38,949 bases of DNA from an uncultured Candidatus Nitrosopumilus sp. (lineage in GTDB: Archaea > Thermoproteota > Nitrososphaeria > Nitrososphaerales > Nitrosopumilaceae): contig CAJQMY010000008.1 in the NCBI GenBank assembly GCA_905479565.1, positions 1-38,949 of the forward strand. The letters run 5' to 3'. The position numbers and the translations under genes were made by a program. Each line of letters begins with the position of its first letter. Within the stretch, counting starts at the first letter, position 1. The notes beneath the pieces are model-generated. The model was not told the DNA's origin and searched no databases. It saw only the letters and a list, made by a program, of their open reading frames with translations. Below are positions 5,381 through 31,353 of the stretch, piece by piece.

Positions 5381-5435
5381 TCAATCTTACAATGTACAGT
5401 ATTTTATCTATTAGATAGGCAAGACAAAATTATCA

Positions 5436-5573
5436 CTAGAGGTCAGGTGAATTTTCAGCATCAGATAATTCTTGATCAGCTTTTCTTCTTTTGTACCATA
5501 GGACTATGCCTGCAACAAGCATGACAGGTAGAAGGATTGCGCCAAGTAGTTGCAGTTCAAAATTGTATAACAT
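5436..5573 (-). CDS. small single-pass membrane protein (45 aa), below the ORF-track cutoff
   Basis: Manual translation gives MLYNFELQLLGAILLPVMLVAGIVLWYKRRKADQELSDAENSPDL*. That is one hydrophobic helix, then a KRRK stop-transfer, then an acidic tail. It fills an otherwise empty gap. Confidence 0.4.
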   Translation of the reverse strand: MLYNFELQLLGAILLPVMLVAGIVLWYKRRKADQELSDAENSPDL

Positions 5574-6825: not shown

Positions 6826-7737
6826 TTACTCCAATTTCAAAGGAATGTCGGCACTTCCAAAAGTTTCATCGATTCTGAAAGTATAACTCTTTGATGAATC
6901 ATACTCAAACTCAGTTCCGCCATATCCGATATTTGGTCCAAAGAGAATATTGAATTCTCGCGAATCACCAGGATTCAACACGATGGTACCGCTGGTAAAG
7001 TCCATTCCAGAATACTTGAATGCATTTGAGCCATCCCAAACATCATATGCACATATTGACGGACTGGTGCAGTTTATTGCAGTTATTTCGGAGCTAGTAT
7101 TTTCTGCAAGCATGCGCACTGATAGTATGGCCTGTCCTGAAGAGGTTATTTCAAACTCATTTCCCTCAGAGCCTGATCCAAACCAATGATACGTTATCGG
7201 CCCTAGAACAAAGGATTCAGCATCTGCTTTGTATTTGTAAAGCACGATTTCTTTGTCAATTGGTTTTTCACAATCAATTCTTTTGTATGCTTTGACAATT
7301 TCAGAGCATTTCTCTAATTCTGCTTCAAGTGCAGCCAATTCAGAGTCATCAGTGTTTGATTGTACAGATTCAACTTGAATTGGTTCAGAATCCACAGAAA
7401 CTGAAATCAAACCAGATTTTATCAAATGCTGAATTCCATTTACAAATTCACCATCAGTGATGGTTCCATCAGCCCACCATCCAGCATTGTTTTTTACCCA
7501 ATCTGGAACACCATCAGATGTTTCAGATGAGATTGTTGTTGGAGGGACTACAATGATTCCATCAGTTATCAAAAATTCCACACCTGAAATAAATTCAGAT
7601 TCGGTGATAGCTCCATCAGCCCACCATCCAGCATTGTTTTTTACCCAGCTAGGGACCTCTGCATAAGCAGATGATATAGTTGAGGTTACTACTAAAAGTA
7701 GAACAATTGTCGAAATTGCGCCTATTGTTGTTTTCAT
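6826..7737 (-). CDS. secreted protein with two copies of a roughly 35-aa W-rich module (VPxWVKNNAGWWADGxIxxxEF)
   Basis: It has a signal peptide MKTTIGAISTIVLLLVVTSTISSAYA. This is followed by EVPSWVKNNAGWWADGAITESEFISGVEFLITDGII and GVPDWVKNNAGWWADGTITDGEFVNGIQHLIKSGLI, and then a C-terminal beta-rich domain. Confidence 0.75.
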   Translation of the reverse strand: MKTTIGAISTIVLLLVVTSTISSAYAEVPSWVKNNAGWWADGAITESEFISGVEFLITDGIIVVPPTTISSETSDGVPDWVKNNAGWWADGTITDGEFVNGIQHLIKSGLISVSVDSEPIQVESVQSNTDDSELAALEAELEKCSEIVKAYKRIDCEKPIDKEIVLYKYKADAESFVLGPITYHWFGSGSEGNEFEITSSGQAILSVRMLAENTSSEITAINCTSPSICAYDVWDGSNAFKYSGMDFTSGTIVLNPGDSREFNILFGPNIGYGGTEFEYDSSKSYTFRIDETFGSADIPLKLE

Positions 7738-7757: not shown

Positions 7758-7796
7758 ATATTTAACCTAGTGATAATAATTTATTCTAGTGGTAAT
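7758..7796 (-). promoter_or_regulatory. promoter of 6826-7737: TATA (GTTAAATAT) plus proximal and distal 11-mers
   Basis: The plus strand reads atatttaac CTAGTGATAAT (7767-7777) N8 CTAGTGGTAAT (7786-7796). The TATA centre is about 25 nt from the ATG at 7737. A third copy, ATAGTGGTAAA, is at 7817-7827. Confidence 0.55.
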
Positions 7797-7877
7797 TCAG
7801 CAAACCATCGCAAAACATAGTGGTAAAATGAAAAAATTAGTTTTCTGCTTATATGTAAATCAGAAAGAACTTGAAAA

Positions 7878-8411
7878 GTGAATAAAAAACAAGAAAATAT
7901 CAACACATCTGTACAAAAATTAACTGAAAAAGACATCCGAAATTATGTTTTTGAGAGATTTGCAGAAATAAAAAAATCAAATAAAATCAAAGATCTAGTA
8001 TCATTTCAAGCGATGAATAAACACATGATTATGGCTCATAATCAAAATGAATTAAAAAATCTAGGAAATATTGTTGGAAGCCATAAAAAAATAAAATTCT
8101 CAGAAATGTTAGAAGAATATGAAAAACATCTTAAAATTGCATTAGAATCAAACCCAACAATAAAGACACATAGCAATGTAATTTTACATATTTTTGGATT
8201 CTTTTCCAGTAGTTTTAACCAAGTAGAAAAAGAAAAATTTTTTGATTTACTAAAACAGTATAAAGAAGAAGAAATCAACATCGGAGGAATTTTGTCAGAA
8301 ATAAATCCAATTATTTATCGATTAAACAACACATATCTTGCAAATCAAACATATTTTTTATTATATTCAAATCCAAATCCTGGAAATCTATTTAGAATTT
8401 TAAAAAAATAA
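7878..8411 (+). CDS. DUF1722 (YbgA C-terminal domain) protein
   Basis: 177 aa with a GTG start. MAHNQ...THSNVILHIFGFF...EKEKF...LLKQYKEEEI...YLANQTYFLLYSNPNPGNL parallels the E. coli YbgA C-terminal region as I recall it (MAHS...THSNVLQHLSGYL...EQYRLG...YIAKQVYLQPHPENLGLRN). Confidence 0.75.
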   Translation: MNKKQENINTSVQKLTEKDIRNYVFERFAEIKKSNKIKDLVSFQAMNKHMIMAHNQNELKNLGNIVGSHKKIKFSEMLEEYEKHLKIALESNPTIKTHSNVILHIFGFFSSSFNQVEKEKFFDLLKQYKEEEINIGGILSEINPIIYRLNNTYLANQTYFLLYSNPNPGNLFRILKK

Positions 8412-8423
8412 AATAATTTAAAA

Positions 8424-9803
8424 TTAAATAGGTTTTCCTTTATGTTGATAATCTATTACCTTATGGAACAAATTATGAGATGAGACAACAGTTAACGAAA
8501 CAAAGAATATTCCAATGAAATTTCTAATGGTCATCAATTCACTAGGTTCAGATGCTATTAACGAAGTTTGAAAAACAACGTAAAAATTATCAAATAACCA
8601 AAATACCAGAGTTATCCAAGAAAGAATACCCGCCATAAAATAACCCAAGCGAGTTTTATTATGAATAAAAACTAAAGAAGTAAAAATCACGGTATACCAA
8701 AAAAACGAATCAATTAACCATAGAGGTTGATAAACATCAGGTCTATCATCCAACCAATAATAAGAAGTTCCAATAACAGCCAAAGCTAATAAAGATATTT
8801 GAATTAGTTTTTGATTAATTTTAAAACCTGTTTTCTCTTCTTTTATTTTTGATGGAGAAGGTGTCGAAATCATTTCTTTTGTTGCGATATCAATAGATTC
8901 ACGAACAGATTTAAGATGAATTGGAATGATTTTTGTAATTTTATCATCAGTAACAACAGTATCATGTACAAGACTATCAATTAGAGGTCTAGCAAGTGAA
9001 GCTTTGACGGGAGTGATAAGATCCACCCAATAAGATGAGAGTCGAGTGGTCAAAAAAGGAATTTGTAAAACGAAAAGATTCCTATTCAAATATGCAGAAT
9101 AAATACGCATTAATTCTTCATAAGTTATTTTATCAGGACCTCCAATTTCAAAAATTTGATCAACAGTTTTAGGCTTTGAAAGACATTCTGCCAAATAGAA
9201 AATCACATCGTCAACCGCAATGGGTTGAGCCAATGATTTAACCCAAGAAGGACAAACCATTACAGGCAATCGCTCTACAAGATAACGAAGCATAGCGTAT
9301 GAACCACCCTGGGCACCGATAATTAACGATGCACGAAATTCAGTTACAGGAATTGTACCAGAACGAAGTATATCACCCACATCTTTACGACTTTTCATGT
9401 GAGGAGATAATTCCAAACTATCATTGACCAATCCCCCCAAATAGATAATTCTCTTCACACCAGCTTTTGTTGCAGATTTAAGAAAGTTTTGAGCTTGAAC
9501 TTTTTCACGATTTGCAAATTCTTGCCATTCACTTTTACTGCCTTCCATCGAATGAAGCAAGTAGTATACAATCTCAATTCCCTGCATAGATTGATCTAAT
9601 TTGTCATTATCAAAAACATCGGCCTGAACATATTTTACATTCTGTGTGTTACTTAATTTTTGCCTACTCAAACCAGTTACAGTGTAACCGTTTGATGACA
9701 ACAAGGATACCAATCTAGAGCCAATAAAACCAGTAGTACCAGTTACCATTATCGAAAAAGGAAAAGACTGATCAATTGTTTTGCGTAACATAATTTGCCC
9801 CAT
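8424..9803 (-). CDS. NAD(P)-binding SDR/NmrA-like protein fused to a C-terminal 4-TM membrane domain
   Basis: 459 aa. It has an N-terminal Rossmann motif VTGTTGFIGSRLV. The last 130 aa or so contain four hydrophobic helices (LIQISLLALAVIG..., FFWYTVIFTSLVFI..., GILSWITLVFWLF..., FIGIFFVSLTVV...). Confidence 0.75.
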   Translation of the reverse strand: MGQIMLRKTIDQSFPFSIMVTGTTGFIGSRLVSLLSSNGYTVTGLSRQKLSNTQNVKYVQADVFDNDKLDQSMQGIEIVYYLLHSMEGSKSEWQEFANREKVQAQNFLKSATKAGVKRIIYLGGLVNDSLELSPHMKSRKDVGDILRSGTIPVTEFRASLIIGAQGGSYAMLRYLVERLPVMVCPSWVKSLAQPIAVDDVIFYLAECLSKPKTVDQIFEIGGPDKITYEELMRIYSAYLNRNLFVLQIPFLTTRLSSYWVDLITPVKASLARPLIDSLVHDTVVTDDKITKIIPIHLKSVRESIDIATKEMISTPSPSKIKEEKTGFKINQKLIQISLLALAVIGTSYYWLDDRPDVYQPLWLIDSFFWYTVIFTSLVFIHNKTRLGYFMAGILSWITLVFWLFDNFYVVFQTSLIASEPSELMTIRNFIGIFFVSLTVVSSHNLFHKVIDYQHKGKPI

Positions 9804-9823: not shown

Positions 9824-9862
9824 TTATTTAAACTAGTGATAATTACTGATAATAGTGGTAAT
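9824..9862 (-). promoter_or_regulatory. promoter of 8424-9803: TATA (TTTAAATAA) plus the same 11-mer pair as at 7767/7786
   Basis: The plus strand reads ttatttaaa CTAGTGATAAT (9833-9843) N8 ATAGTGGTAAT (9852-9862). The 19-bp box spacing is identical to the 7758-7796 promoter. The TATA is about 25 nt from the ATG at 9803. Confidence 0.55.
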
Positions 9863-9905: not shown

Positions 9906-9942
9906 TTGGCACTATAAACCAATATTAGCACCAGTTAAATAA
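9906..9942 (+). promoter_or_regulatory. promoter of the CarH-like gene: TTGGCACTAT - N9 - TTAGCACCAG - TTAAATAA
   Basis: The distal box is at 9906-9915 and the proximal box at 9925-9934, directly abutting the TATA at 9935-9942. The ATG at 9963 lies about 25 nt from the TATA centre. Confidence 0.55.
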
Positions 9943-9962: not shown

Positions 9963-10805
9963 ATGGTGTACATTAGAGCCAAGAAGGTAAAATCTGATCA
10001 ATACCTTTACCTGGTCAAAAGTGTCTGGGATTCAAAAAAAAGTACATCTAAACAAGAAATTGTAAAATATCTTGGAAAAGCATCAGAAGTTGTAAAGGAT
10101 GACATTCCAGTAAAGTATAGAGACAACCCCAAAGTTCTTTCAGTACTAGCATCATTTAATCCAAAAGACATTAAAAAAAGAGAAGAGTCAACAAGGAAAT
10201 CAAAGCAACAACTTTACAAGAAATTAACAGAGGGCAACATTAACGAGTGTGTAAAAATATATGAAGAATATACAAAAATTTTCAATCCAGCTGATTTTTT
10301 CGATAAGATTCTAAAACAAGTAATGTTTGATATTGGAGAAGACTGGGCAACCAATAAAATAAGCATTGCAACAGAGCATGTTGCAAGCAATATTGCAGAA
10401 ACATTGGTCAAAATAATTATGGATAGTGTTTCAGGAGCAGTAAATAAGAAAAAAGTTCTAATATGCGTACCTGTGGGCGAAGAGCATCATTTGGGATGCG
10501 ATGTCTTAGAAACATATCTTTCAATTAAGGGATTCAAAGTATACAACATGAGAACATCAATGCCAACAGAAACTATAATCGATTTTATTGAAAATAATAA
10601 ACCAGATATGGCATTTATCTCAATAACATTGCCAGACAATATTATAGCTGGTCAAAGACTAGTAAGAAAAATTAATGATGAATGTAAGATTCCAATTCTA
10701 ATTGGCGGGTATGCTATGCAATCAAAAAAAATACCAAAGTTTGAAGGAAAAGTAATTTCAGAATCAAATTTGGATGAATTACCAAAAATTATCAGAAATT
10801 TATAA
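9963..10805 (+). CDS. CarH/LitR-type cobalamin (B12)-binding photoreceptor-like protein with a non-MerR N-terminal domain
   Basis: 280 aa. GEDW128ATNKISIATE138H139VAS is an exact Wx9EH motif in the helical-bundle region. VPVGE173EH175HLG178CD is ExHxxG at the start of a Rossmann-type B12-binding domain (VLICVP...FKVYNM...MAFISITL...PILIGG). The N-terminal 45 aa (MVYIRAKKVKSDQYLYLVKSVWDSKKSTSKQEIVKYLG) are basic and contain no recognisable MerR HTH. Confidence 0.75.
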   Translation: MVYIRAKKVKSDQYLYLVKSVWDSKKSTSKQEIVKYLGKASEVVKDDIPVKYRDNPKVLSVLASFNPKDIKKREESTRKSKQQLYKKLTEGNINECVKIYEEYTKIFNPADFFDKILKQVMFDIGEDWATNKISIATEHVASNIAETLVKIIMDSVSGAVNKKKVLICVPVGEEHHLGCDVLETYLSIKGFKVYNMRTSMPTETIIDFIENNKPDMAFISITLPDNIIAGQRLVRKINDECKIPILIGGYAMQSKKIPKFEGKVISESNLDELPKIIRNL

Positions 10806-10814
10806 TTAAAAATA

Positions 10815-11513
10815 TCAGCATTTCAGATAAGATTCAATCTTTGGATGACATAGAATAGAACTATGTGCAGCAGAGTCAGTTCCAATACCATAACTTACAG
10901 TTGAATCTCCAACAAAAAATAGTCCTTCAATCCCAGAAATTTGGTGAGGCATTTTTGATTTCCACACTTTTCCAGGCTCCTTTACTACAGATTCAACTAA
11001 TTTCCAGGCCATAGGGCGCTCCCAAATTAAATCAGACTCAAATTTTGGATAAATTGATGTTATCTCATTTTTCATTTTATCAACAATGCTTTTGATAGCA
11101 TTGGTATCATCAGTCACTTCAGGACTTACAGGAGTTCCCGCAATAATCAAGTGCTCACCAGGAGGAGAAACAGATGGAGTAATGTTAGAAATAAAAAATA
11201 TTCCTTTAGTAGTGTATTCAGTACCTACAGGAAATACAACCTGACGTGAATCAATTTTTGATTTTAGTGCAAAATGAACTTCAATTACAGACGTGGTCTT
11301 GTTTAATTTGTTAATTTTTTGAATAAATTTCTCGTCAATGATATTTTTATCAAATAATTGATTTAGTGCATGATATGCAGGATATGAGATAACAACACAA
11401 TTTGTAGAAATGTGTTGCTCAATTCCGCTTATATCTTTGACGAGTATGCCTGTAACCTTGGAATTCTCAACAATAATTTTTTTTAACAGATTGTTGTGTA
11501 TCGACTTCCCCAT
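10815..11513 (-). CDS. FAD-dependent oxidoreductase of the phytoene-desaturase/amine-oxidase (CrtI-like) family, C-terminal fragment
   Basis: ...KIIVENSKVTGILVKD...FFVGDSTVSYGIGTDSAAHSSILC has the C-terminal FAD-contact motif of the family. It continues the gene begun at 12161 via a middle segment in a third frame, with a break in the T8 run at 11477-11484. Confidence 0.75.
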   Translation of the reverse strand: MGKSIHNNLLKKIIVENSKVTGILVKDISGIEQHISTNCVVISYPAYHALNQLFDKNIIDEKFIQKINKLNKTTSVIEVHFALKSKIDSRQVVFPVGTEYTTKGIFFISNITPSVSPPGEHLIIAGTPVSPEVTDDTNAIKSIVDKMKNEITSIYPKFESDLIWERPMAWKLVESVVKEPGKVWKSKMPHQISGIEGLFFVGDSTVSYGIGTDSAAHSSILCHPKIESYLKC

Positions 11514-11618
11514 TTTTCAATAAAATATAATCAGACAAAACATGAGATATGGAATCATATCCACCATTATCAGGATATGCAAATTCGCTTGTTCCCCCCT
11601 TAAACGGATTTGCTCTAA

Positions 11619-12161
11619 TCAAGTACGAGTGAATTCACCTAGCGATATATGATCTGCAGTATCTGCAAATGCCAACATACAAACAGATTCAAAAAAAGCA
11701 TTTGTATCAAAATCTAAATTTTTAGTAATATCAGTCAAAGGAACATCATCCCACAATTCAGTTTTTTCTAAAGAAGTGAATGCCAAAGGAAACAGAATTC
11801 TTAAAAGTTTGACCCTGCTTTTGAAAGGTAACAACGAAAGTCGGAGTAAATCCAAGATTCCTTTTGGATAACCGTGAAAACCACATGTGGAATAAAATGC
11901 AATGTCATTTACTTTTGCAAGTATCAAATTAGAGTCAATTTTTAATTTTTTCAGCACAGTGAAAATTGCAGATTTTTTATAAAACGGCATTATATGAAAC
12001 CCATTATCAAGTATATGATTTCTAAATTTTACAGAAGCAGTCCTGCCTCCTAATTTTGAAGACTTTTCTAAAACTCGAACTTTATGGCCTTCGGTGGACA
12101 ATAGTGCTGCGATGGTTAGCCCACCCACGCCTGCGCCAATCACAATTATAGGCATGCTCAT
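11619..12161 (-). CDS. FAD-dependent oxidoreductase (CrtI-like family), N-terminal fragment
   Basis: MSMPIIVIGAGVGGLTIAALLSTEGHKVRVLEKSSKLGGR is the GxGxxG...E...GGR dinucleotide-binding motif. Downstream, in another frame (11514-11620), the sequence reads LIRANPFKGGTSEFAYPDNGGYDSISHVLSDYILLKNGEVDTQQSVKK, the family's YPxGG segment. Confidence 0.8.
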   Translation of the reverse strand: MSMPIIVIGAGVGGLTIAALLSTEGHKVRVLEKSSKLGGRTASVKFRNHILDNGFHIMPFYKKSAIFTVLKKLKIDSNLILAKVNDIAFYSTCGFHGYPKGILDLLRLSLLPFKSRVKLLRILFPLAFTSLEKTELWDDVPLTDITKNLDFDTNAFFESVCMLAFADTADHISLGEFTRT

Positions 12162-12215
12162 GAACGATTTATGAAAAAATATTATATATACAGATGCTAA
12201 CTAATTAAAATAGTG

Positions 12216-12671
12216 CTAACTTGAGGATAACTTGCTTTTAATCGAATATTTTTCTGCACAATTAATGAACTCAAGCATCACATGGCTCATTTTTTTGCGA
12301 AGAATTTTCTTTACGAATGGAATATACTTTAGAATACCGTTTATTTTCAAATTTACAGAAATTGAAATTAAGGTACCAGAAGAAGATGACTCATAGTTTT
12401 CAATAAAGGAAGTTCCTTTTAATGGGCCTGTCAAAATAAAGACTTTATATATATTTGGAGGTAAAACAAGATGCATAGTTTTAACTTTCACAGATTGTCC
12501 TAAAAAATTAATTTTTTCTGAAACAACAATGCCAGATTCATCTTCACTAAGAATGTCTAATGATTTAAAATAATTTGGCATGATGGTGTGGAAATTATTT
12601 ACATCAGTGCTAATCTTAAAAACTACTTCACGATTTAGTGAAGACTGTCCATATAAACCAAAATTAATCAT
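12216..12671 (-). CDS. SRPBCC-like ligand-binding protein
   Basis: 151 aa. ...VFKISTDVNNFHTIMPNYFKSLDILSEDESGIVVSEKI... follows the same pattern as ORF 4384-4812. Its start overlaps the upstream gene's stop (ATGA). Confidence 0.5.
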   Translation of the reverse strand: MINFGLYGQSSLNREVVFKISTDVNNFHTIMPNYFKSLDILSEDESGIVVSEKINFLGQSVKVKTMHLVLPPNIYKVFILTGPLKGTSFIENYESSSSGTLISISVNLKINGILKYIPFVKKILRKKMSHVMLEFINCAEKYSIKSKLSSS

Positions 12672-13102
12672 GATAAAATTTCCGGTTCAATATGCCCCCA
12701 CAGATTTGATTTGGTAACAACTAGACTAGAATCAAATTTTTTCATTTGTAAATAAACCAAAGATAATGATTTCTTAACAGAATTAGTTTTTTCAGGATCT
12801 GTTAAAGATAATAATCTAATAGTTGTTTTTTTAGAACTGGCAGATACTTGAATAAAAAATTCTTGATGTAATTCATCAATTACTACTACAGATAACAATG
12901 CGCTCAATCCATTACTATCGACATAAATATTTGAAATTCTTATCAGGGGGGATTTTTGAAAATAAGGTGAAAATAACTTTGAAAACTCTAAAAGATTCAC
13001 TTGTTTATTTACAACAATATGTGGCAATTGTAATTTTTTTAATTTTATTTTATTTATAGAAGAGTGAAAAAATAACCTAGTGCTAAAAATACTTGCTCTC
13101 AT
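12668..13102 (-). CDS. hypothetical protein, co-operonic with the SRPBCC gene
   Basis: 144-aa ORF with a 4-nt overlap onto 12216-12671. I recognise no family. Confidence 0.45.
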   Translation of the reverse strand: MRASIFSTRLFFHSSINKIKLKKLQLPHIVVNKQVNLLEFSKLFSPYFQKSPLIRISNIYVDSNGLSALLSVVVIDELHQEFFIQVSASSKKTTIRLLSLTDPEKTNSVKKSLSLVYLQMKKFDSSLVVTKSNLWGHIEPEILS

Positions 13103-13119
13103 AATAACATAGGTTCAGT

Positions 13120-13156
13120 TTAGCACTAGATTTGCAAACATAAGCACCTTAAATAA
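13120..13156 (+). promoter_or_regulatory. promoter of the TFB operon: TTAGCACTAG - N11 - TAAGCACC - TTAAATAA
   Basis: Boxes are at 13120-13129 and 13141-13148, with the TATA at 13149-13156. The ATG at 13177 is about 25 nt from the TATA centre. Confidence 0.55.
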
Positions 13157-13176: not shown

Positions 13177-14088
13177 ATGTTAGCTGAATTAGTGCATCAA
13201 AAAAATTGTAAAAAAAACAATATGATTATGGATGCAGACACAGGGGAATTAGCATGTAGTAATTGTGGAGCCGTTTCCTTAGAGAAAATTATTGATATGA
13301 CCGCAGAATTCAGTGGTTTTAGCTCAGAAGGACATTATAATAATTCCAGAGTAGGTATGAAGACATCATTAAAGATGGCAGACAGAGGATTATCCACAAT
13401 CATGGAATCTCAAGATAAAGATTCATCAGGTAAAAGATTATCAAGTGAAAATCGTAGATTGTTTTATCGCCTCAGAATATGGGATAGAAACAGTCGCTCA
13501 TCAATTTCTGTTAAGTCATTTCAAAAGGCATTTACATTGTTAGATGGAATGAGCTCAAAATTAGGATTGCCAGAATCTGTAATAGAGGAGACGGCATACT
13601 TGTTTAGAAAAATTGCTGCAAAGAAAATTCTTGCAGGAAGATCCACATCAGCAGTATTATGTGCTTCTGTATACATGACTTGCAGATTAACAGACACTCC
13701 AAGAACTCTGCATGATGTTGCAAATGCAGGGAATCTAAAGAAAAAGCATTTGCAAAGAATATATCGATTTTTAATAAAAGAATTGGAATTATATCCTGAA
13801 ACATATAATCCAAGAGAATTTGTTACACGAGTTGCAAAGGCAGTAGGATTACCTGAGAAAACTGAAAGATTGGCTTTCAAAATATTGAGCATTTCTGAAA
13901 AGAACAATGTTTCAACTAGTAAAAATCCAATGGCAATGGCGGCTTCTGCAATTAATCTTGCATCAGTGATGAATAATGAAAAAATTACTCAGCTAAAAAT
14001 TTCAGAAGCTTCAGGCATTAGTGCAGTAACCATCAGAGATAGAACAAAAGAGATCAAAGAAAAAATCGGAGGTGAAGTCAATGGGTAG
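13177..14088 (+). CDS. tfb: transcription initiation factor IIB (TFB) paralog
   Basis: 303 aa. It has an N-terminal ribbon (H..NC...DADTGELACSNCG), a B-reader/linker, and two cyclin-fold repeats (GRSTSAVLCASVYMTCR..., PMAMAASAINLAS...). The first Cys pair of the Zn ribbon is degenerate (HxxxC). Confidence 0.9.
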   Translation: MLAELVHQKNCKKNNMIMDADTGELACSNCGAVSLEKIIDMTAEFSGFSSEGHYNNSRVGMKTSLKMADRGLSTIMESQDKDSSGKRLSSENRRLFYRLRIWDRNSRSSISVKSFQKAFTLLDGMSSKLGLPESVIEETAYLFRKIAAKKILAGRSTSAVLCASVYMTCRLTDTPRTLHDVANAGNLKKKHLQRIYRFLIKELELYPETYNPREFVTRVAKAVGLPEKTERLAFKILSISEKNNVSTSKNPMAMAASAINLASVMNNEKITQLKISEASGISAVTIRDRTKEIKEKIGGEVNG

Positions 14089-14266
14089 AACATGTAATAA
14101 TATTTGTGAAAGATACAAAGCCGCACCAGCTCCCAACAGAATCAGGTATGAAATAGGACAAAAAAGATGCACATTTTGCGGAATTTTTGTGCTATCAGAT
14201 AATGCCAGATGTATGTGCTGTAAAGCTGTTTTAAGAACAAAACCACGATCTAGGAAGGCCAAATGA
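14081..14266 (+). CDS. small zinc-ribbon protein (61 aa from ATG 14081)
   Basis: MGRTCNNICERYKAAPAPNRIRYEIGQKRCTFCGIFVLSDNARCMCCKAVLRTKPRSRKAK has Cx3C...CxxC...CxCC and a basic tail. It overlaps the TFB stop by 8 nt and the next gene's ATG by 4 nt. Confidence 0.6.
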   Translation: MGRTCNNICERYKAAPAPNRIRYEIGQKRCTFCGIFVLSDNARCMCCKAVLRTKPRSRKAK

Positions 14267-14592
14267 GAGTTTGGGACATTCCTGTTGAAAACCTTTGTAG
14301 AAACCATCTACTAGGTGAGCATAGGGAGTTACATGCCATGTGGTCTGTCATCACCCAAAATAAGAAAGGATACTCAAAACATCCTGAAACTATCAGATGG
14401 ATTGGAAAATTAAAGGCGTTGTATCTTAGGCACAATCAACAAGTAAATGAAATGAAGAATAGAGGATATAATCACCAAAGTCCATTGGATGCAAAAATTG
14501 CAACAGGTAAATCAAAACAAGACGCATATCTACATACACCAACAAAACAAATCCAAATTCTAAAACAAAAAGAATGCAATTGCAAAGTCTGA
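14263..14592 (+). CDS. pyrimidine-dimer DNA glycosylase, T4 endonuclease V (DenV / Pyr_excise) family
   Basis: MRVWDIPVENLCRNHLLGEHRELHAMWSVI...KGYSKHPE parallels the T4 endoV N-terminus (...LADQHLMAEYRELPRVF...), including the catalytic-region Glu in ExRE. Confidence 0.78.
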   Translation: MRVWDIPVENLCRNHLLGEHRELHAMWSVITQNKKGYSKHPETIRWIGKLKALYLRHNQQVNEMKNRGYNHQSPLDAKIATGKSKQDAYLHTPTKQIQILKQKECNCKV

Positions 14593-14697
14593 TTTTAATT
14601 TTATGCAAAGAATCTTGTTGGCACTAGTCTCAAATTCAGATTTAGGTTAAAAGTTAAAAGATTAAAAATTCAACATGGTAATCAAGGAGATATCTCA

Positions 14698-15309
14698 TTG
14701 AGAGGTATTTTTGAATCTCTTCTTTGTTTTGGAATAATGACGGGATTACTTTTACCAGCAAGACTACTTTTCGTGGAATATATTTCAGATGATTGGTTAG
14801 GGTCATTTGGAATCATTTCTGCAATTTCTATATCAGTCATCATACTTGCAAAAAAACAAAAATTGGGTTTCTTCGGACCTATGCTTGAACGACAGACATA
14901 TAAATTTCAAAGAGGAAAACGCGGAATTCTAGTTTTTGGTGAATCAGTATTTCTTCTTGCACTACTAGGAACGACAATTATTGCCATAGAACAAGGAAAT
15001 TCAGTTTATTCTGATCTAAAATTACAAAATAACAAAAATTTATCTTCAAACTCTGTACAAGTTCAGGTTCTAGAGATAACAAAAGAGTGGACGGCAGTGG
15101 ATTGGATGAAAGGGCATTTGATGGGGATCATAGCCATGATTACAAATTTTCCCGCAATGAGTGCAGCTATTGCATCAATTGATGACGCATCTGGAGGATG
15201 GTTATTACATGTTTACACTGTAGGTTTTGTTGAATACATAGAGTTGTTGGGAATTTTTATATTTTATAGAATCCCCATGGGTAACAAATTGGTCTCCAGA
15301 ACACAATAA
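14698..15309 (+). CDS. polytopic membrane protein, hypothetical
   Basis: 203-aa ORF with several hydrophobic helices; the track start is TTG. An ATG at 14675 sits at leaderless distance from the TATA-like TTAAAAGTTAAAAG (14646-14660), but it is one frame off. This may be another indel. Confidence 0.55.
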   Translation: MRGIFESLLCFGIMTGLLLPARLLFVEYISDDWLGSFGIISAISISVIILAKKQKLGFFGPMLERQTYKFQRGKRGILVFGESVFLLALLGTTIIAIEQGNSVYSDLKLQNNKNLSSNSVQVQVLEITKEWTAVDWMKGHLMGIIAMITNFPAMSAAIASIDDASGGWLLHVYTVGFVEYIELLGIFIFYRIPMGNKLVSRTQ

Positions 15310-16318: not shown

Positions 16319-16975
16319 CTAAGATCTTTTTGGAGGTTTTTTTGATTTTTTTCTGAGAATTATTAATGTTGGAACAATAAATAACCCAATTAGAATCAAA
16401 ATGAAAAATACAATTGAATTATAATCATTCACAAATAATTTTGTGTCAAGCCAAGCTTTAGGTAAAATTGTAAAAAAATCAACAAATGAAAAATCCTCAA
16501 TAGTTCCAATGGCTAAACTATATTTTCCACTTTGATTTTTTTCATCCATTACAGCAAGAAAATATGTTCCATCTGCTGGAATTACTGTTTTAAATTCCTG
16601 TCTTTCCCAATATGTTGTCTGACCAAATGGCTCATAGAACTCATCACCTGGAAAATTTTTTTCATAATTGATTTTCTTCTTCTCAAAATTATCATCACCT
16701 ACAAAAACAAGAGTTGGAGAATATTCTTCCAAACCATCAATTTTAGGAACTACAATACTTGCAAAAAATGAATCTCCTTTATTGGCCTCAAAAGTGTAAA
16801 ACTTTGCTTCATTTTCTCCTAAATTTTCATAAATTACCCAAGAAACTTCATGATCTGGAATTTTGAGGGCCAATTCAAAATTTCGATGAGCATCATCATG
16901 GCTAATTAATTTGTGCCCATATGCAGGATTTAATGAAACAAGAGTAACAAAAAATAAAATCAATATTTTTTTCAT
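16319..16975 (-). CDS. secreted beta-rich protein with a C-terminal TM anchor and basic tail
   Basis: The signal peptide is MKKILILFFVTLVSLNPAYG. The C-terminus is IVFFILILIGLFIVPTLIILRKKSKKPPKRS. Confidence 0.6.
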   Translation of the reverse strand: MKKILILFFVTLVSLNPAYGHKLISHDDAHRNFELALKIPDHEVSWVIYENLGENEAKFYTFEANKGDSFFASIVVPKIDGLEEYSPTLVFVGDDNFEKKKINYEKNFPGDEFYEPFGQTTYWERQEFKTVIPADGTYFLAVMDEKNQSGKYSLAIGTIEDFSFVDFFTILPKAWLDTKLFVNDYNSIVFFILILIGLFIVPTLIILRKKSKKPPKRS

Positions 16976-17082
16976 AACGCTGGTTTAGAGAATTCGTATT
17001 TTAACTGCAGACGATTTTTTTCATATTGGCACTAGGATGAATTAAGAATGTTCTTCATATAGAAAGAAAATTAATTTTACTC

Positions 17083-17205
17083 ATGAAAAGATTCGGAATT
17101 CAAATGTGCAATAGTTGTGGAAAAGAATTTCACGAGTGGTCTTGTGACTATTGCTATGCCAAAATCATTATTAACCAAATTGAGGATTTATTGTGTTCCA
17201 AATAG
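17083..17205 (+). CDS. mini zinc-ribbon protein (40 aa), below the ORF-track cutoff
   Basis: MKRFGIQMCNSCGKEFHEWSCDYCYAKIIINQIEDLLCSK* has CxxC...CxxC. It is preceded by TTGGCACTAG (17026-17035) and a TATA-like CATATAGAAA about 25 nt upstream. Confidence 0.4.
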   Translation: MKRFGIQMCNSCGKEFHEWSCDYCYAKIIINQIEDLLCSK

Positions 17206-17216
17206 GAGAAATATAG

Positions 17217-17627
17217 ATGGAACAAACTATTTCAGACACAAAAATTCCGATAAGAATCGCTTTTGTAAAGCCTGATGGAACACCCAACATCATATCATTA
17301 TGGTATGAACAGATCGAGGGGAAAATTTATTGTGCAACAACAAAAACGGCAAAGATTGTTTCGCATCTTCAGAATAATCCAAAATGCGGTTTTGAGATAG
17401 CAACGGACAAGCCACCATACAAAGGCACCAGAGGAACAGGGCATGTAAAGATTATAGAAAGCCAAGGACAAGAAATTCTTAAAATTTTAATGAAGAAATA
17501 TTTAGGAAGTAAGGAATCAACACTATCAAGATATTTGAACGATAATTCAGAAGCCGAAGTAGCACTAGAAATTTTACCTCAAAATATTTTCAATTATGAT
17601 TATTCAAAAAGAATGAAGGACGTTTGA
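17217..17627 (+). CDS. pyridoxamine 5'-phosphate oxidase-family FMN-binding protein
   Basis: 136 aa. ...IRIAFVKPDGTPNIISLWYEQIEGKIYCATTKTAKIVSHLQNNPKCGFEIA... fits the split-barrel PNPOx-like pattern. Confidence 0.7.
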   Translation: MEQTISDTKIPIRIAFVKPDGTPNIISLWYEQIEGKIYCATTKTAKIVSHLQNNPKCGFEIATDKPPYKGTRGTGHVKIIESQGQEILKILMKKYLGSKESTLSRYLNDNSEAEVALEILPQNIFNYDYSKRMKDV

Positions 17628-17630
17628 TTT

Positions 17631-17756
17631 ATGATAGACGAGGGATGTCCAACATGCAATTCAAGGAGACATGCACTATCAAAAGTAGATAGTAATGGAG
17701 ATGGCAGTATTCAGTTTTTAAAATGTCAAAACTGTAGAAAAATTTGGATACCTTAA
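17631..17756 (+). CDS. mini zinc-ribbon protein (41 aa), below the ORF-track cutoff
   Basis: MIDEGCPTCNSRRHALSKVDSNGDGSIQFLKCQNCRKIWIP* has CPxC...CxxC. It starts 3 nt after the stop of 17217-17627. Confidence 0.45.
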   Translation: MIDEGCPTCNSRRHALSKVDSNGDGSIQFLKCQNCRKIWIP

Positions 17757-17760
17757 ATTA

Positions 17761-17796
17761 TTAGCACTAGTCAAAATTTTAGCCCTAGATTAAATA
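17761..17796 (+). promoter_or_regulatory. promoter of 17826-18179: TTAGCACTAG - N8 - TTAGCCCTAG - ATTAAATA
   Basis: Boxes are at 17761-17770 and 17779-17788 (18-bp spacing). The second box abuts the TATA at 17789-17796. Confidence 0.5.
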
Positions 17797-17825: not shown

Positions 17826-18179
17826 ATGCAACAAACGAAATACAAACAGACCCCACAACTGAAATTTTTAGCAATAGTGGTTGTGGCCACTTCAGTGATA
17901 CTAATTTTCACGATAGCTCCCTGGAACATTCTTCCAGCATCAGTCTCTGAAGAAGTGTCAGTAATCGCTGTAACGGATTATGGTTGTGTGGGTGAGTCAA
18001 GTCTTGGAAGATCAGTTGTTGTTTCAGACTGTGATGCAAGTGTTGGAGATATTGTTTCTGCAACATTTTACATTCCAGCAGGAGAAACAAACGGATACCT
18101 GAAGGAACTTGAAAAAAGACAAAACCCAATGGTAGACGCGTGGGACAGTAGTGTCAGCGGTAAAGGATTCTCGCCATAA
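17826..18179 (+). CDS. membrane-anchored extracytoplasmic protein, hypothetical
   Basis: 117 aa. It has an N-terminal anchor LKFLAIVVVATSVILIFTIAPW followed by a small Cys-containing domain. Confidence 0.5.
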   Translation: MQQTKYKQTPQLKFLAIVVVATSVILIFTIAPWNILPASVSEEVSVIAVTDYGCVGESSLGRSVVVSDCDASVGDIVSATFYIPAGETNGYLKELEKRQNPMVDAWDSSVSGKGFSP

Positions 18180-30891: not shown

Positions 30892-31305
30892 CTATTTTGT
30901 TTGTGCGAAAGGATTTATCCAAGATTGGACAATGTTTTTGTTTAATTCAGCAAAGGCATCAACGTTCTCGTTAAATGTTTTAAAATTTTGAACAGTTACA
31001 TCAATGGTAGTTTTTACCAATTGGTTGTTGACTGTACTTGCTTGAACAATTTGCTTGTCGGTATCAATAATTGCAGTCTTTGCAGAATCTGGAATTTCAG
31101 TATAGATTCCAGATTTTTTTGCAAATTCTTGTTGCACAGACACCGCAGCGTTAATTGTTTTTTGACAAGTTTTTACACATTCATTTTGCAATTCTGTTGC
31201 AGATTGAAAATATTGCGGAGTTAATTTTGTAACATTTTCAAAGTATTTCTGAACATTTTGCTTGTACATTACGAATGCATCGCTGGATTGAGATTGTGTA
31301 CTCAT
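30892..31305 (-). CDS. hypothetical helical protein, possibly phasin-like
   Basis: 137 aa, Q/T/N-rich and helical, with no Cys-rich or TM features. It has a strong promoter (TTATATAC plus ATTACCA boxes). The phasin idea rests on composition only. Confidence 0.4.
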   Translation of the reverse strand: MSTQSQSSDAFVMYKQNVQKYFENVTKLTPQYFQSATELQNECVKTCQKTINAAVSVQQEFAKKSGIYTEIPDSAKTAIIDTDKQIVQASTVNNQLVKTTIDVTVQNFKTFNENVDAFAELNKNIVQSWINPFAQTK

Positions 31306-31325
31306 GAATTATCTAAGTACTAGAG

Positions 31326-31353
31326 GTATATAACTATTGGTAATGAGTGGTAA
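31326..31353 (-). promoter_or_regulatory. promoter of 30892-31305: TATA (TTATATAC) plus two ATTACCA(A/C)T boxes
   Basis: The plus strand reads gtatataa CTATTGGTAAT (31333-31343) GAGTGGTAAT (31344-31353). The TATA is about 24 nt from the ATG at 31305. The boxes relate to those at 7767/7786 and 9833/9852 but are contiguous. Confidence 0.5.

What the first reader, a model, noticed from the sequence alone, without database searches (positions are those of the whole stretch)
9963..10805. CarH-type B12 photoreceptor signature on a protein without a MerR DNA-binding domain
The 280-aa product carries both residues-in-context that define AdoCbl-dependent light sensors of the CarH/LitR family. The first is W128-x9-E138-H139 (GEDWATNKISIATEHVAS; TGG at 10344-10346) in the helical-bundle region. 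The second is E173-x-H175-x-x-G178 (GEEHHLG; CAT at 10485-10487) at the start of a Rossmann-type B12-binding domain. The spacing mirrors Thermus CarH as I recall it (W131/E141/H142/H177). Corrinoid proteins of methyltransferases share DxHxxG but not Wx9EH. In place of the MerR HTH there is a basic 45-aa segment (MVYIRAKKVKSDQYLYLVKSVWDSKKSTSKQEIVKYLG) that I cannot assign to any family. A B12 light sensor with a new output domain would be notable in a lineage known to be photoinhibited and to synthesise cobalamin.
Basis: partly seen in the sequence, partly recalled or inferred. Interest (0 to 1): 0.8.

Follow-up and report, generated by a model that had tools for sequence, protein, structure and literature searches.

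The report
Archaeal B12 light-sensor with new DNA-binding domain
A Nitrosopumilus gene encodes what looks like a vitamin-B12-based light sensor, of the kind bacteria use to switch genes on in daylight, but it is joined to a previously undescribed DNA-binding module whose likely target sequence sits in front of the gene itself and of neighbouring UV-repair and stress genes; this would be the first such light switch known in archaea.

Summary
ORF 9963-10805(+) encodes a 280-aa Nitrosopumilus protein with both CarH-type signatures: W128-x9-E138-H139, and E173-x-H175-x2-G178-x41-S220-x-T222-x25-G248-G249. It has no MerR domain.

- **Sensor module.** Pfam scores B12-binding_2 and B12-binding above threshold. 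An AlphaFold model (pLDDT 91) matches only B12 photoreceptor domains in its top 50 PDB hits.
- **N-terminal module.** Residues 1-55 are the best conserved part of the family. They fold as a basic three-stranded beta-meander with no match in Pfam, NCBIfam, PHROGs, PDB or BFVD.
- **Candidate operator (new here).** Two direct repeats, TTRGCACYAG, lie 19 bp apart, and the proximal one abuts the TATA box. The pair precedes the gene in 77/79 Nitrosopumilaceae loci. It also precedes at least four neighbouring genes, and the TFB paralogue has the distal repeat at the same distance from its TATA box. The same core travels with the family into Nitrososphaeraceae, 45-60% GC archaea and Thermoplasmata.
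- **Controlled genes.** They include an NmrA-like SDR, a CrtI-like oxidoreductase, a secreted protein, and a TFB paralogue in an apparent operon with a pyrimidine-dimer glycosylase.

Best reading: an AdoCbl photoreceptor transcription factor that regulates itself. It works like CarH but is not a CarH member. No description was found in the literature searched. Everything is inferred in silico.

The parts
9963..10805 (+). Gene for the 280-aa B12-binding regulator (stop codon included)
9963..10127 (+). N-terminal module, residues 1-55. It comprises a three-stranded antiparallel beta-meander (strands 2-9, 12-23, 28-39) followed by a conserved DIPxEYR turn. This is the proposed DNA-binding domain. 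R5, K7, Y14, Y16, V18, W22, Q31, Y36, G38 and P49 are invariant across the family.
   Evidence: No match in Pfam, NCBIfam, PHROGs, PDB or BFVD.
10161..10427 (+). Four-helix bundle (residues 67-155), Pfam B12-binding_2
10344..10379 (+). Wx9EH motif (W128...E138-H139), the cap over the adenosyl group in CarH and photocobilins
10446..10802 (+). Rossmann-type B12-binding domain (residues 162-280). It carries E173-x-H175-x2-G178 (10479-10496), S220-x-T222 (10620-10628) and G248-G249 (10704-10709).
9906..9941 (+). Candidate operator plus TATA box of the regulator's own promoter: TTGGCACTAT (9906-9915), 9-nt spacer, TTAGCACCAG (9925-9934), TTAAATA (9935-9941). The ATG lies 28 nt after the start of the TATA box.
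9825..9861 (-). Mirror-image operator plus TATA box for the divergent gene: TTACCACTAT (9861-9852), spacer, TTATCACTAG (9842-9833), TTTAAATA (9832-9825)
8424..9803 (-). NmrA/epimerase-like NAD(P)-binding protein with a hydrophobic C-terminal region. It is the most conserved neighbour of the regulator, also found beside it in Nitrososphaeraceae, a soil lineage and Thermoplasmata.
7759..7795 (-). Operator plus TATA box in front of 6826-7737(-): TTACCACTAG, 9-nt spacer, TTATCACTAG, G, TTAAATA. A third site lies at 7817-7826(-).
6826..7737 (-). Secreted 303-aa protein of unknown function. It is operator-controlled in 56 loci and shares an operon with the regulator gene in L083 and L087.
7878..8411 (+). 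DUF1722 protein, a conserved cluster member. Only a reverse-oriented site lies upstream of it.
12183..12219 (-). Operator plus TATA box in front of the CrtI-like gene: TTAGCACTAT, 9-nt spacer, TTAGCATCTG, TATATATA
10815..12161 (-). CrtI/amine-oxidase-family FAD oxidoreductase. In this window it is broken by two compensating frameshifts.
13120..13156 (+). Strong distal site TTAGCACTAG (13120-13129), a degenerate proximal site, then TTAAATAA (13149-13156) in front of the TFB paralogue
13177..14592 (+). Apparent operon: TFB paralogue (13177-14088), Zn-ribbon ORF (14072-14266) and pyrimidine-dimer DNA glycosylase (14263-14592)
17761..17796 (+). Operator plus TATA box (TTAGCACTAG, 8-nt spacer, TTAGCCCTAG, A, TTAAATA) in front of 17826-18179(+)
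12216..13102 (-). SRPBCC-like gene (12216-12671) and an unknown gene (12668-13102). A perfect site lies at 13077-13086(-).
14618..14627 (+). Single strong site TTGGCACTAG in the intergenic region before 14698-15309(+)
17026..17035 (+). Single strong site TTGGCACTAG between the divergent genes 16319-16975(-) and 17083-17205(+)

Best explanation
The gene encodes an archaeal cobalamin-dependent photoreceptor transcription factor.

[quoted passage not shown] The bundle carries the Wx9EH cap (W128, E138, H139). In the Rossmann fold, H175 would be the lower cobalt ligand.

Its N-terminal 55 residues form a basic three-stranded beta-sheet module that replaces the MerR domain of CarH. I propose that this module reads a 10-bp element, TTRGCACYAG.

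In the dark, the cofactor-loaded protein would oligomerise through its B12 domains. It would then sit on two direct repeats 19 bp apart. The proximal repeat lies directly upstream of the TATA box, where TFB must bind, so transcription would be blocked. Light would cleave the Co-C bond, the oligomer would fall apart, and the promoters would open.

Targets are its own gene and a local cluster. The cluster holds an NmrA-like reductase, a CrtI-like flavoenzyme, a secreted protein, a TFB paralogue with a UV-damage glycosylase, and several small proteins.

- **Shown:** the motifs, the fold class of the sensor, the conserved operator architecture and its co-occurrence with the protein family.
- **Inferred:** cofactor identity, light response, that the N-terminal module is what reads the repeats, and the sign of regulation (repression is assumed by analogy with CarH).
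For: **Sensor**
- Pfam scores both B12 domains above threshold.
- Both signature motifs are complete. H175 is invariant and W128, E138, H139, E173 are at least 90% conserved family-wide.
- The four key residues align with those that contact AdoCbl in SasPcob and CarH.
- The AF2 model has pLDDT 91, and its top 50 PDB matches are all B12 photoreceptors: 8J2W at E 5e-13 and rmsd 1.8 A, then 8JBS, 5C8A/D/E and 3WHP.
- The family profile scores photoreceptor domains highest.
- G158 and G190 align with the CarH tetramer-interface glycines G160 and G192 (their role per PMC9304148).
- A photocobilin that, like this protein, lacks the His after the Trp still monomerises in light.

**DNA-binding output**
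- The N-terminal module is the most conserved part of the protein.
- It is confidently predicted as a beta-meander and has net charge +7.
- Relatives of the module exist alone, in tandem, or fused to an HNH nuclease.

**Operator**
- Alignment of 75 loci shows a footprint of two 10-nt blocks separated by a non-conserved spacer. Spacing is 19 nt in 75/75 loci, and the proximal block abuts the TATA box 27-30 nt before the ATG.
- The window has 5 such pairs, against 0 in 100 Markov resamplings.
- All sites scoring at least 14 bits lie between 7.7 and 17.8 kb, in intergenic DNA.
- Ordinary promoters in the window lack the element.
- The pair precedes the regulator gene in 77/79 loci. A mirror-image pair on the opposite strand, facing the divergent neighbour, is present in 42/79.
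- The same element accompanies distant family members: Nitrososphaeraceae L085, L087, the 60% GC L083, and L088. The GGCACT(A/C)G core recurs in Thermoplasmata L081 and L089.
- The regulator is the only plausible DNA-binding protein shared by all these loci. The TFB paralogue is not among the called genes and Pfam hits of those outside Nitrosopumilaceae.

**Light context**
- The cluster holds a pyrimidine-dimer glycosylase, DUF1722, an SDR and a FAD oxidoreductase.
- This resembles bacterial LitR light regulons (PMC9758184).
Against: - There is no experimental evidence for cobalamin binding, photolysis, oligomer change or DNA binding.
- By overall sequence the B12 domain is nearly as close to methyl-carrier corrinoid proteins as to Thermus CarH. 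NCBIfam gives CarH 49 bits against pyl_corrinoid 47 bits. The profile gives CarH about 74 bits, MetH 75 and MttC 70.
- The His that follows Trp in CarH and forms the bis-His light state is Ala here. The CarH R176-D201 salt bridge is not conserved (E174/S199 by alignment).
- The beta-meander has no solved or annotated relative, so DNA binding rests on comparative genomics alone.
- Many target promoters have only the distal site, and some carry it reversed. This fits an activator as well as a repressor.
- The window and the related loci examined showed no photolyase or carotenoid pathway. Most targets are of unknown function.
- Only flanks of at most about 8 kb were available, so the genome-wide distribution of the element is unknown.
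Confidence: 0.6

Rival explanations
1. A cobalamin-status sensor rather than a light sensor. The protein binds DNA through its N-terminal module, but uses cofactor loading (AdoCbl present or absent) to report B12 supply in a B12-producing archaeon. Light plays no physiological role.
For: - CarH-type proteins need AdoCbl to assemble and bind DNA (PMC8156234), so any such factor also senses B12.
- The host lineage makes cobalamin (established knowledge).
- No photolyase or carotenoid genes appear in the regulon.
Against: - The Wx9EH cap is, in the characterised cases, specific to photoreceptors.
- None of the controlled genes is a cobalamin synthesis, transport or B12-dependent enzyme gene.
- One target operon ends in a UV-damage glycosylase.
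- Protein-bound AdoCbl is photolabile in any case.
Confidence: 0.15
2. A light or B12 sensor that does not itself bind DNA. The N-terminal beta module would be a protein-interaction domain, as AerR/PpaA act on CrtJ/PpsR. The TTRGCACYAG repeats would be read by another factor, for example the neighbouring TFB paralogue.
For: - The beta-meander has no known DNA-binding relative.
- AerR-type B12 proteins work through partners (PDB 7TE2 among the hits).
- A TFB paralogue sits in the cluster in most Nitrosopumilaceae loci, and the proximal repeat lies where a BRE would be.
Against: - The called genes and Pfam hits of the distant loci that keep the operator (L083, L085, L087, L088, L089) show no TFB paralogue or other candidate regulator.
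- A BRE reader would not explain an identical second repeat 19 bp upstream.
- The N-terminal module is basic and is fused to an HNH nuclease elsewhere.
- Its invariant residues parallel the invariant operator core across phyla.
Confidence: 0.12
3. A corrinoid methyl-carrier protein of the MtaC/MtbC/MttC type, as several automatic annotations say ('methanogenic corrinoid protein MtbC1').
For: - JGI names many orthologues this way.
- TIGR02370 scores 46.6 bits, close to the CarH model.
- MttC, MtaC and MetH domains appear among the PDB sequence hits.
Against: - Every score is far below the family cutoffs.
- The Wx9EH cap is present and conserved. It is absent from MetH according to PMC8156234.
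- No corrinoid carrier is in the top 50 structural matches.
- No cognate methyltransferase gene is in the window or the related loci.
- An extra, highly conserved N-terminal domain and an autoregulatory promoter architecture are unexplained by this role.
Confidence: 0.03

Closest known systems
CarH / class I LitR (AdoCbl-dependent MerR-family photoreceptor repressors; Thermus thermophilus, Myxococcus xanthus, Bacillus megaterium)
   Same: - The sensor has two subdomains: a four-helix bundle with Wx9EH and a Rossmann fold with E/DxHxxG-x41-SxT/V-x22-27-GG.
- The DNA-reading module is N-terminal and joined by a linker.
- The candidate operator consists of direct (not palindromic) repeats overlapping core promoter elements.
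- The gene is autoregulated and linked to a divergent target.
- Both tetramer-interface glycine positions align.
   Different: - The MerR winged helix is replaced by an unrelated three-stranded beta module.
- The operator is two 10-bp repeats 19 bp apart, not three or four tandem 11-bp repeats of nAnnTnnACAn.
- The target is an archaeal BRE/TATA promoter, not a sigma-A promoter.
- There is no His after the Trp, and the R176-D201 salt bridge is missing.
- The regulon has no carotenoid genes.
- The host is an archaeon, whereas CarH homologues are reported from bacterial taxa (PMC8156234).
Photocobilins (SasPcob 8J2W/8J2X, AbDPcob 8J2Y)
   Same: - They are the closest solved structures and sequences for the B12 domain (E 4.8e-13 by sequence, rmsd 1.8 A).
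- They carry the same Wx9EH and ExH residues.
- They also lack the His after Trp, yet lose their dimer in light.
   Different: - Photocobilins have a C-terminal globin-like biliverdin-binding domain and enzyme outputs. This protein ends with the Rossmann fold.
- Its extra domain is N-terminal.
Chloracidobacterium thermophilum MerR-family B12-binding domain (8JBS/8JBT)
   Same: It is the best PDB match to the family profile (94 bits) and is a B12 photoreceptor domain of a transcription factor.
   Different: Its DNA-binding part is of the MerR type, and it is bacterial.
AerR / PpaA (short cobalamin-binding antirepressors)
   Same: They use a B12-binding domain for light-dependent gene control.
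   Different: - AerR has no DNA-reading module and acts on CrtJ/PpsR.
- It is a weaker match (61 bits).
- It uses a different cofactor chemistry (stated from general knowledge).
MtaC/MtbC/MttC corrinoid proteins and the MetH cobalamin domain
   Same: They share the overall bundle-plus-Rossmann fold and the lower-ligand His motif.
   Different: - MetH lacks the Wx9EH cap; this was not checked here for MtaC, MtbC or MttC.
- They work with methyltransferases.
- They have no N-terminal DNA module and no regulatory promoter architecture.
Small uncharacterised proteins carrying the same beta module (e.g. P0224, P0264, P0266 from an MSBL1 archaeon, P0274 from Chloroflexi; two are tagged PF20586)
   Same: They share the pattern [FY][IVL]RxK...YxY[LI]V...Q...YLG and, in some, the following PxEYR turn.
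   Different: - They stand alone, occur in tandem, or are fused to HNH nuclease or unknown C-terminal parts.
- None has a B12 domain, and none has a known function.

Membership tests
CarH / class I LitR family | N-terminal MerR-type winged-helix DNA-binding domain | tested here: not met
   No MerR or HTH family hit at E<=1. AF2 predicts three beta strands over residues 2-39. NCBIfam's CarH model matches only residues 79-229, at 49 bits against a cutoff of 400.
CarH / class I LitR family | [quoted passage not shown] | tested here: met
   W128, E138 and H139 are present, aligned to the CarH and SasPcob motif and at least 90% conserved across the family.
CarH / class I LitR family | Classic B12-binding motif E/DxHxxG-x41-SxT/V-x22-27-GG | tested here: met
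   E173, H175, G178, S220, T222, G248 and G249 occur with spacings of 41 and 25 residues. The motif definition is from PMC9304148.
CarH / class I LitR family | AdoCbl-dependent oligomerisation in the dark and light-induced disassembly with loss of operator binding | not testable with these tools
   This needs purified protein. The only indirect support is that G158 and G190 align with CarH G160 and G192.
CarH / class I LitR family | Operator of direct repeats overlapping the target promoter | tested here: inconclusive
   An analogous but different architecture was found: two 10-bp direct repeats 19 bp apart, abutting the TATA box. Binding by this protein has not been shown.
B12-dependent photoreceptor superfamily (CarH-type cobalamin-binding domain, any output) | Bundle plus Rossmann fold, with both signature motifs positioned around the cofactor | tested here: met
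   The AF2 model has pLDDT 91. Its top 50 Foldseek PDB hits are all photoreceptor B12 domains, with TM-score normalised to target up to 0.85. Residue equivalence was established by alignment. Coordinates could not be inspected directly.
Photocobilins | Globin-like biliverdin-binding domain fused to the B12 domain | tested here: not met
   The protein ends at residue 280 with the Rossmann fold. Alignments to 8J2W cover only its B12 part.
Methyltransferase corrinoid proteins (MtaC/MtbC/MttC) | Score above the family cutoff, and an adjacent cognate methyltransferase | tested here: not met
   TIGR02370 scores 46.6 bits against a cutoff of 215, MtbC 32.9 against 350, and MtaC 29.6 against 420. No methyltransferase partner is in the window or in 80 related loci.
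AerR/PpaA antirepressors | B12 domain without a DNA-reading module, acting on CrtJ/PpsR | tested here: not met
   An additional conserved N-terminal module is present. No CrtJ/PpsR-like gene is nearby. AerR is a weaker match.

The most novel reading that the evidence does not exclude
This would be a family of adenosylcobalamin photoreceptor transcription factors found across archaeal phyla (Nitrososphaerota and Thermoplasmatota). It would use a previously undescribed beta-sheet DNA-binding domain to read TTRGCACYAG direct repeats at BRE/TATA promoters. In ammonia-oxidising archaea it would control a light/UV island that includes an alternative TFB, giving a two-tier light-induced transcription cascade. 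That would be the first photoreceptor-controlled gene regulation described in this globally abundant, photoinhibited, B12-producing group.
Probability: 0.45. Interest if true: 0.9.

Novelty: new variant of a known kind. Interest (0 to 1): 0.8.

Why it matters
- **A missing sensor for a known effect.** Ammonia-oxidising archaea are among the most abundant microbes in the ocean. They are inhibited by light and are major producers of cobalamin, yet no light sensor or light-controlled regulon has been described for them in the literature I could search.
- **A concrete, testable circuit.** This locus offers a candidate sensor, its candidate operator and its candidate targets.
- **Wider reach for B12 photobiology.** If confirmed, it would extend the field from bacteria to archaea and show that the CarH-type sensor can drive the archaeal (eukaryote-like) basal transcription machinery.
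- **New tools.** It would add a new compact DNA-binding fold and a new orthogonal operator for green-light optogenetic tools.
- **Annotation fixes.** It would correct widespread misannotation ('MtbC1', 'histidine kinase').
- **Function for unknowns.** It would give a first functional handle on several conserved proteins of unknown function that share the operator.

Tried and rejected
- **N-terminal module, sequence searches.** Pfam, NCBIfam and PHROGs found nothing, even at E<=10. A profile search against PDB sequences gave only a chance capsid hit at E 0.6.
- **IS1634 transposase idea.** I suspected a link to the N-termini of IS1634-type transposases. Searching with a tandem-module relative found only small uncharacterised proteins, so I dropped it.
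- **PF20586 tag.** This precomputed tag on two relatives was not reproduced by the local hmmscan.
- **First operator search.** An over-specific pattern returned nothing. A position-weight-matrix approach replaced it.
- **Middle repeat.** One promoter suggested a third, middle repeat with 9-bp periodicity. The spacer is not conserved across loci, so I rejected it.
- **Generic BRE.** I considered that the proximal repeat might simply be the usual BRE. Other promoters in the window lack it, so I rejected this.
- **RNA element.** The window has no Rfam hit.
- **Papers not held.** The key reviews and the CarH structure paper could not be read, so CarH facts are cited from PMC8156234, PMC9304148 and PMC10979010.
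Full report
**Observation**

The codons named are correct: TGG for W128 at 10344-10346 and CAT for H175 at 10485-10487. A pattern check finds W128-x9-E138-H139 and E173-x-H175-x2-G178. Counting onward, the whole classic motif is present: G178-x41-S220-x-T222-x25-G248-G249. This fits the definition E/DxHx2G-x41-SxT/V-x22-27-GG given in PMC9304148 and PMC8156234. Pfam scores B12-binding_2 (residues 82-151) and B12-binding (164-251) above their curated cutoffs and reports no MerR or other helix-turn-helix family. The window comes from a Nitrosopumilus. An identical protein is on record, more than 2,000 clusters match, and named orthologues come from Nitrosopumilus species. A scan of one genome per species found 115 relatives, and the 80 kept are all Nitrosopumilaceae or unclassified Nitrososphaerota.

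**The sensor module**

The key residues are in the right context, not just present as strings. The HMMER alignment to the photocobilin SasPcob (8J2W/8J2X) puts W128, E138, H139 and H175 on chain positions 55, 65, 66 and 102. With one constant offset these are Trp61, Glu71, His72 and His108. The crystal structure shows these stacking on the adenosine ribose, lining the adenosyl pocket and ligating cobalt (PMC10979010). The same residues align with W/EH/H of Thermus CarH.

An AlphaFold model built on a 40-sequence family alignment is confident (mean pLDDT 91). It shows a four-helix bundle (residues 67-155) followed by a Rossmann fold (164-279). Its 50 best Foldseek matches in the PDB are all B12 photoreceptor domains: photocobilins, the Chloracidobacterium MerR-family B12 domain, TtCarH and LitR. 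No methyl-carrier corrinoid protein is among them. A profile of the family scores 8JBS and 8J2W at 92-94 bits, against about 75 for MetH and Thermus CarH and 70 for MttC.

Overall sequence similarity alone would therefore not settle the class. NCBIfam likewise gives CarH 49 bits and the pyl_corrinoid model 47 bits, both far below their cutoffs. The conserved Wx9EH cap and the structural ranking decide it. Across the family, down to 22% identity, H175, G248 and G249 are invariant, and W128, E138, H139, E173 and S220 are at least 90% conserved.

There are two differences from Thermus CarH. The residue after the Trp is Ala rather than the His that forms the bis-His light state, and the R176-D201 salt bridge is not kept. 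The first difference is shared with SasPcob, which still loses its dimer on illumination. G158 and G190 align with CarH G160 and G192 at the tetramer interface.

**The N-terminal module**

Residues 1-50 are nearly invariant among Nitrosopumilaceae. They also carry ten of the thirteen invariant positions of the wider family: R5, K7, Y14, Y16, V18, W22, Q31, Y36, G38 and P49. AlphaFold predicts three long antiparallel strands (2-9, 12-23, 28-39) followed by the conserved DIPxEYR turn. This holds both in the full-length model and in a model of residues 1-62 alone, which has pLDDT 93. The segment has a net charge of +7.

An exhaustive HMMER search of 1.8 billion representative proteins with residues 1-79 found 121 clusters. 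About 35 have the same architecture, with the module followed by a B12 domain. The rest are fragments or other architectures:
- the module plus an HNH nuclease (P0210);
- the module plus unknown C-terminal regions of about 130 aa;
- a tandem pair of modules (P0224);
- small stand-alone proteins from an MSBL1 archaeon and from Chloroflexi.

Two of these carry a precomputed PF20586 tag that I could not reproduce locally.

**A conserved operator**

I aligned the 200 nt upstream of the gene in 79 loci. This revealed two 10-nt blocks, TTaGCACTAg and TTaGCAtTAG, separated by a spacer that is not conserved. The start-to-start distance is 19 nt in 75 of 75 loci scored. The second block is followed at once by TTAaATA, and that TATA box starts 27-30 nt before the ATG, as expected for a leaderless archaeal transcript.

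In the window these elements are 9906-9915, 9925-9934 and 9935-9941. The mirror image (9861-9852, 9842-9833, then TTTAAATA) faces the divergent gene 8424-9803. The same pair-plus-TATA layout precedes 6826-7737(-), the CrtI-like gene starting at 12161(-), and 17826-18179(+). A strong distal site with a degenerate proximal one precedes the TFB paralogue at 13177.

Several controls support the finding:
- The window holds five pairs, against none in 100 first-order Markov resamplings.
- All nine sites of at least 14 bits lie between 7.7 and 17.8 kb, and none lies in the other 29 kb.
- Ordinary promoters in the window show no such sequence before their TATA boxes, so the proximal block is not simply the generic BRE.
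- Across loci, the layout of a distal site at a fixed distance from a TATA box precedes the regulator gene in 79 loci. It also precedes the secreted 6826-family protein in 56, the TFB paralogue in 34, the 12668-family gene in 26 and the CrtI-like gene in 27, besides a set of small unknown proteins.
- Within 200 nt of the start codon, 77/79 loci have the forward pair and 42/79 also have the mirror-image pair on the opposite strand.

**The element travels with the protein**

- **Nitrososphaeraceae.** This contig's regulator is 41% identical to the window's. It shows TTAGCACTAT-N9-TTACCCATTA-TTTAAATA before the regulator gene and TTAGCACTAG-N19-TTATATTA before the adjacent NmrA-like gene.
- **45% GC contig (L087).** It has TTGGCACTAG-N9-TTAGCACTAG-TTTAAATA in front of a two-gene operon made of the secreted-protein homologue and the regulator.
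- **60% GC archaeal contig (L083).** It has TGGGCACTAG-N8-TTGGCACCAG-TTTAAATA in the same position.
- **Soil contig (L088).** It has three such promoters, one of them driving an operon that ends in the NmrA-like gene.
- **Thermoplasmata branch.** The branch is identified by a named relative. Here the regulator follows an MMPL gene. Upstream of that operon lie CGAGTGCC-N12-CGAGTGCC-N6-TTTAATAT (L081) and CTAGTGCC-N11-ATGATGCC-N6-TTTATGTG (L089). These are the reverse complement of the GGCACT(A/C)G core. An NmrA-like gene is divergent in L089.

By the gene calls and Pfam hits listed for these loci, the only protein they all share that could plausibly read DNA is the B12 protein itself. The TFB paralogue does not appear in those listings outside Nitrosopumilaceae.

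**Gene context**

The island around the regulator holds the following:
- DUF1722;
- an NmrA/epimerase-like protein with a hydrophobic tail;
- a CrtI/amine-oxidase-family flavoenzyme;
- an SRPBCC protein;
- a TFB paralogue followed by overlapping ORFs for a Zn-ribbon protein and a pyrimidine-dimer DNA glycosylase;
- a PPOX-class F420 protein.

A short-chain dehydrogenase and a FAD oxidoreductase next to a LitR-type regulator and photolyase form a conserved light-inducible cluster in Pseudomonas (PMC9758184). The resemblance is suggestive, but orthology was not tested. No photolyase or carotenoid pathway is in the window.

**Mechanism proposed**

By analogy with CarH (PMC8156234) and SasPcob, dark-state AdoCbl-loaded protein would oligomerise head-to-tail through its B12 domains. 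Its beta modules would then be presented to two direct repeats on one face of the DNA. The proximal repeat occupies the BRE position, so TFB would be excluded. Photolysis of the Co-C bond would break the oligomer and release the promoters.

- **Shown:** motifs, fold class, operator architecture, its clustering, and its co-occurrence with the family.
- **Inferred:** cofactor identity, light response, that residues 1-55 read the repeats, and repression rather than activation.

The sign of regulation is uncertain. Many targets have only the distal site at a fixed 29 nt from the TATA box, and a few carry it reversed. That placement also suits an archaeal activator.

**Rivals**

- A pure B12-status sensor is possible, but the regulon has no B12-related genes.
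- A sensor that works through a partner, leaving the repeats to another reader, is weakened because no other regulator is shared by the distant loci.
- A methyl-carrier role, as in the JGI 'MtbC1' names, is contradicted by the cap motif, the structural ranking, the missing methyltransferase partner and the regulatory architecture.

**Comparison and novelty**

The protein works like CarH but fails the family's first defining feature, the MerR domain, so it should not be filed as a CarH/LitR member. It belongs to the broader B12-photoreceptor superfamily as a new architecture.

Ten full-text searches found no paper linking a B12 photoreceptor to ammonia-oxidising or other archaea. Reviews describe CarH homologues as spread across bacterial taxa. 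Public annotations of the orthologues disagree with one another. I rate it a new variant of a known kind: a known sensor joined to a new DNA-reading module, a new operator, and a new domain of life.

**Limits**

- All evidence is computational.
- Model coordinates could not be inspected, so pocket geometry rests on alignments.
- Only flanks of at most about 8 kb were available, so the genome-wide spread of the operator is unknown.
- The fold libraries best suited to a 60-residue beta domain were offline.

Noticed in passing
window 10815-12161 (-): The CrtI/amine-oxidase-like gene is interrupted by two compensating frameshifts between about 11500 and 11621, next to C6 and T8 homopolymer runs. 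The orthologue in L004 is an intact 448-aa ORF. This is either a sequencing or assembly error or a recent pseudogene.
   Followed up: partly
window 13177-14592 (+): A TFB paralogue, an overlapping 64-aa Zn-ribbon ORF (14072-14266) and a pyrimidine-dimer DNA glycosylase (14263-14592, PF03013) look like one operon behind an operator-type promoter. A light-controlled alternative TFB would imply a second regulatory tier.
   Followed up: partly
window 6826-7737 (-); L083 4929-5861; L087 2007-2900: A secreted protein of about 300 aa has two PSWVKNNAGWWA repeats and a conserved Cys-containing C-terminal domain, with no family match. It is the most constant operator-controlled partner and shares an operon with the regulator in two distant lineages. 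The repeat also occurs in 31947-32933(-).
   Followed up: partly
window 31306-31350, upstream of 30892-31305 (-): Three tandem units of about 10 nt (AATGGCATTC, ATTACCACTC, ATTACCAATAG) lie directly before a TTATATA box. They are operator-like but have 10-nt spacing and lie outside the cluster.
   Followed up: no
proteins P0150, P0161, P0227 (family members from other contigs): These members keep the N-terminal module and the lower-ligand His. However, they lack the Trp (P0227) or the whole Wx9EH motif (P0150, P0161). This recalls the B12-independent CarA offshoot of CarH.
   Followed up: no
proteins P0323 and P0210: Two other architectures turned up. P0323 joins an XRE-type HTH to B12-binding_2 and B12-binding. 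P0210 joins the N-terminal beta module to an HNH endonuclease.
   Followed up: no
window 17083-17205 (+) and 17631-17756 (+): Two small CxxC...CxxC Zn-ribbon ORFs flank the PPOX-class F420 gene 17217-17627. The first lies behind a strong single operator site (17026-17035).
   Followed up: no
window 5432-5570 (-): An unannotated small ORF encodes a one-helix membrane peptide (MLYNFELQLLGAILLPVMLVAGIVLWYKRRK...). An operator-like site (5430-5439) overlaps its stop codon.
   Followed up: no
orthologues listed: Public names for the same protein conflict: 'histidine kinase' (N. oxyclinae, N. cobalaminigenes), 'methanogenic corrinoid protein MtbC1', 'MerR family light-induced transcriptional regulator', and 'cobalamin B12-binding domain-containing protein'.
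   Followed up: yes
window 34372-36756 (-): This is a large secreted protein with 12 RTX calcium-binding repeats plus HYR and Ig-like domains. It is unrelated to the finding.
   Followed up: no
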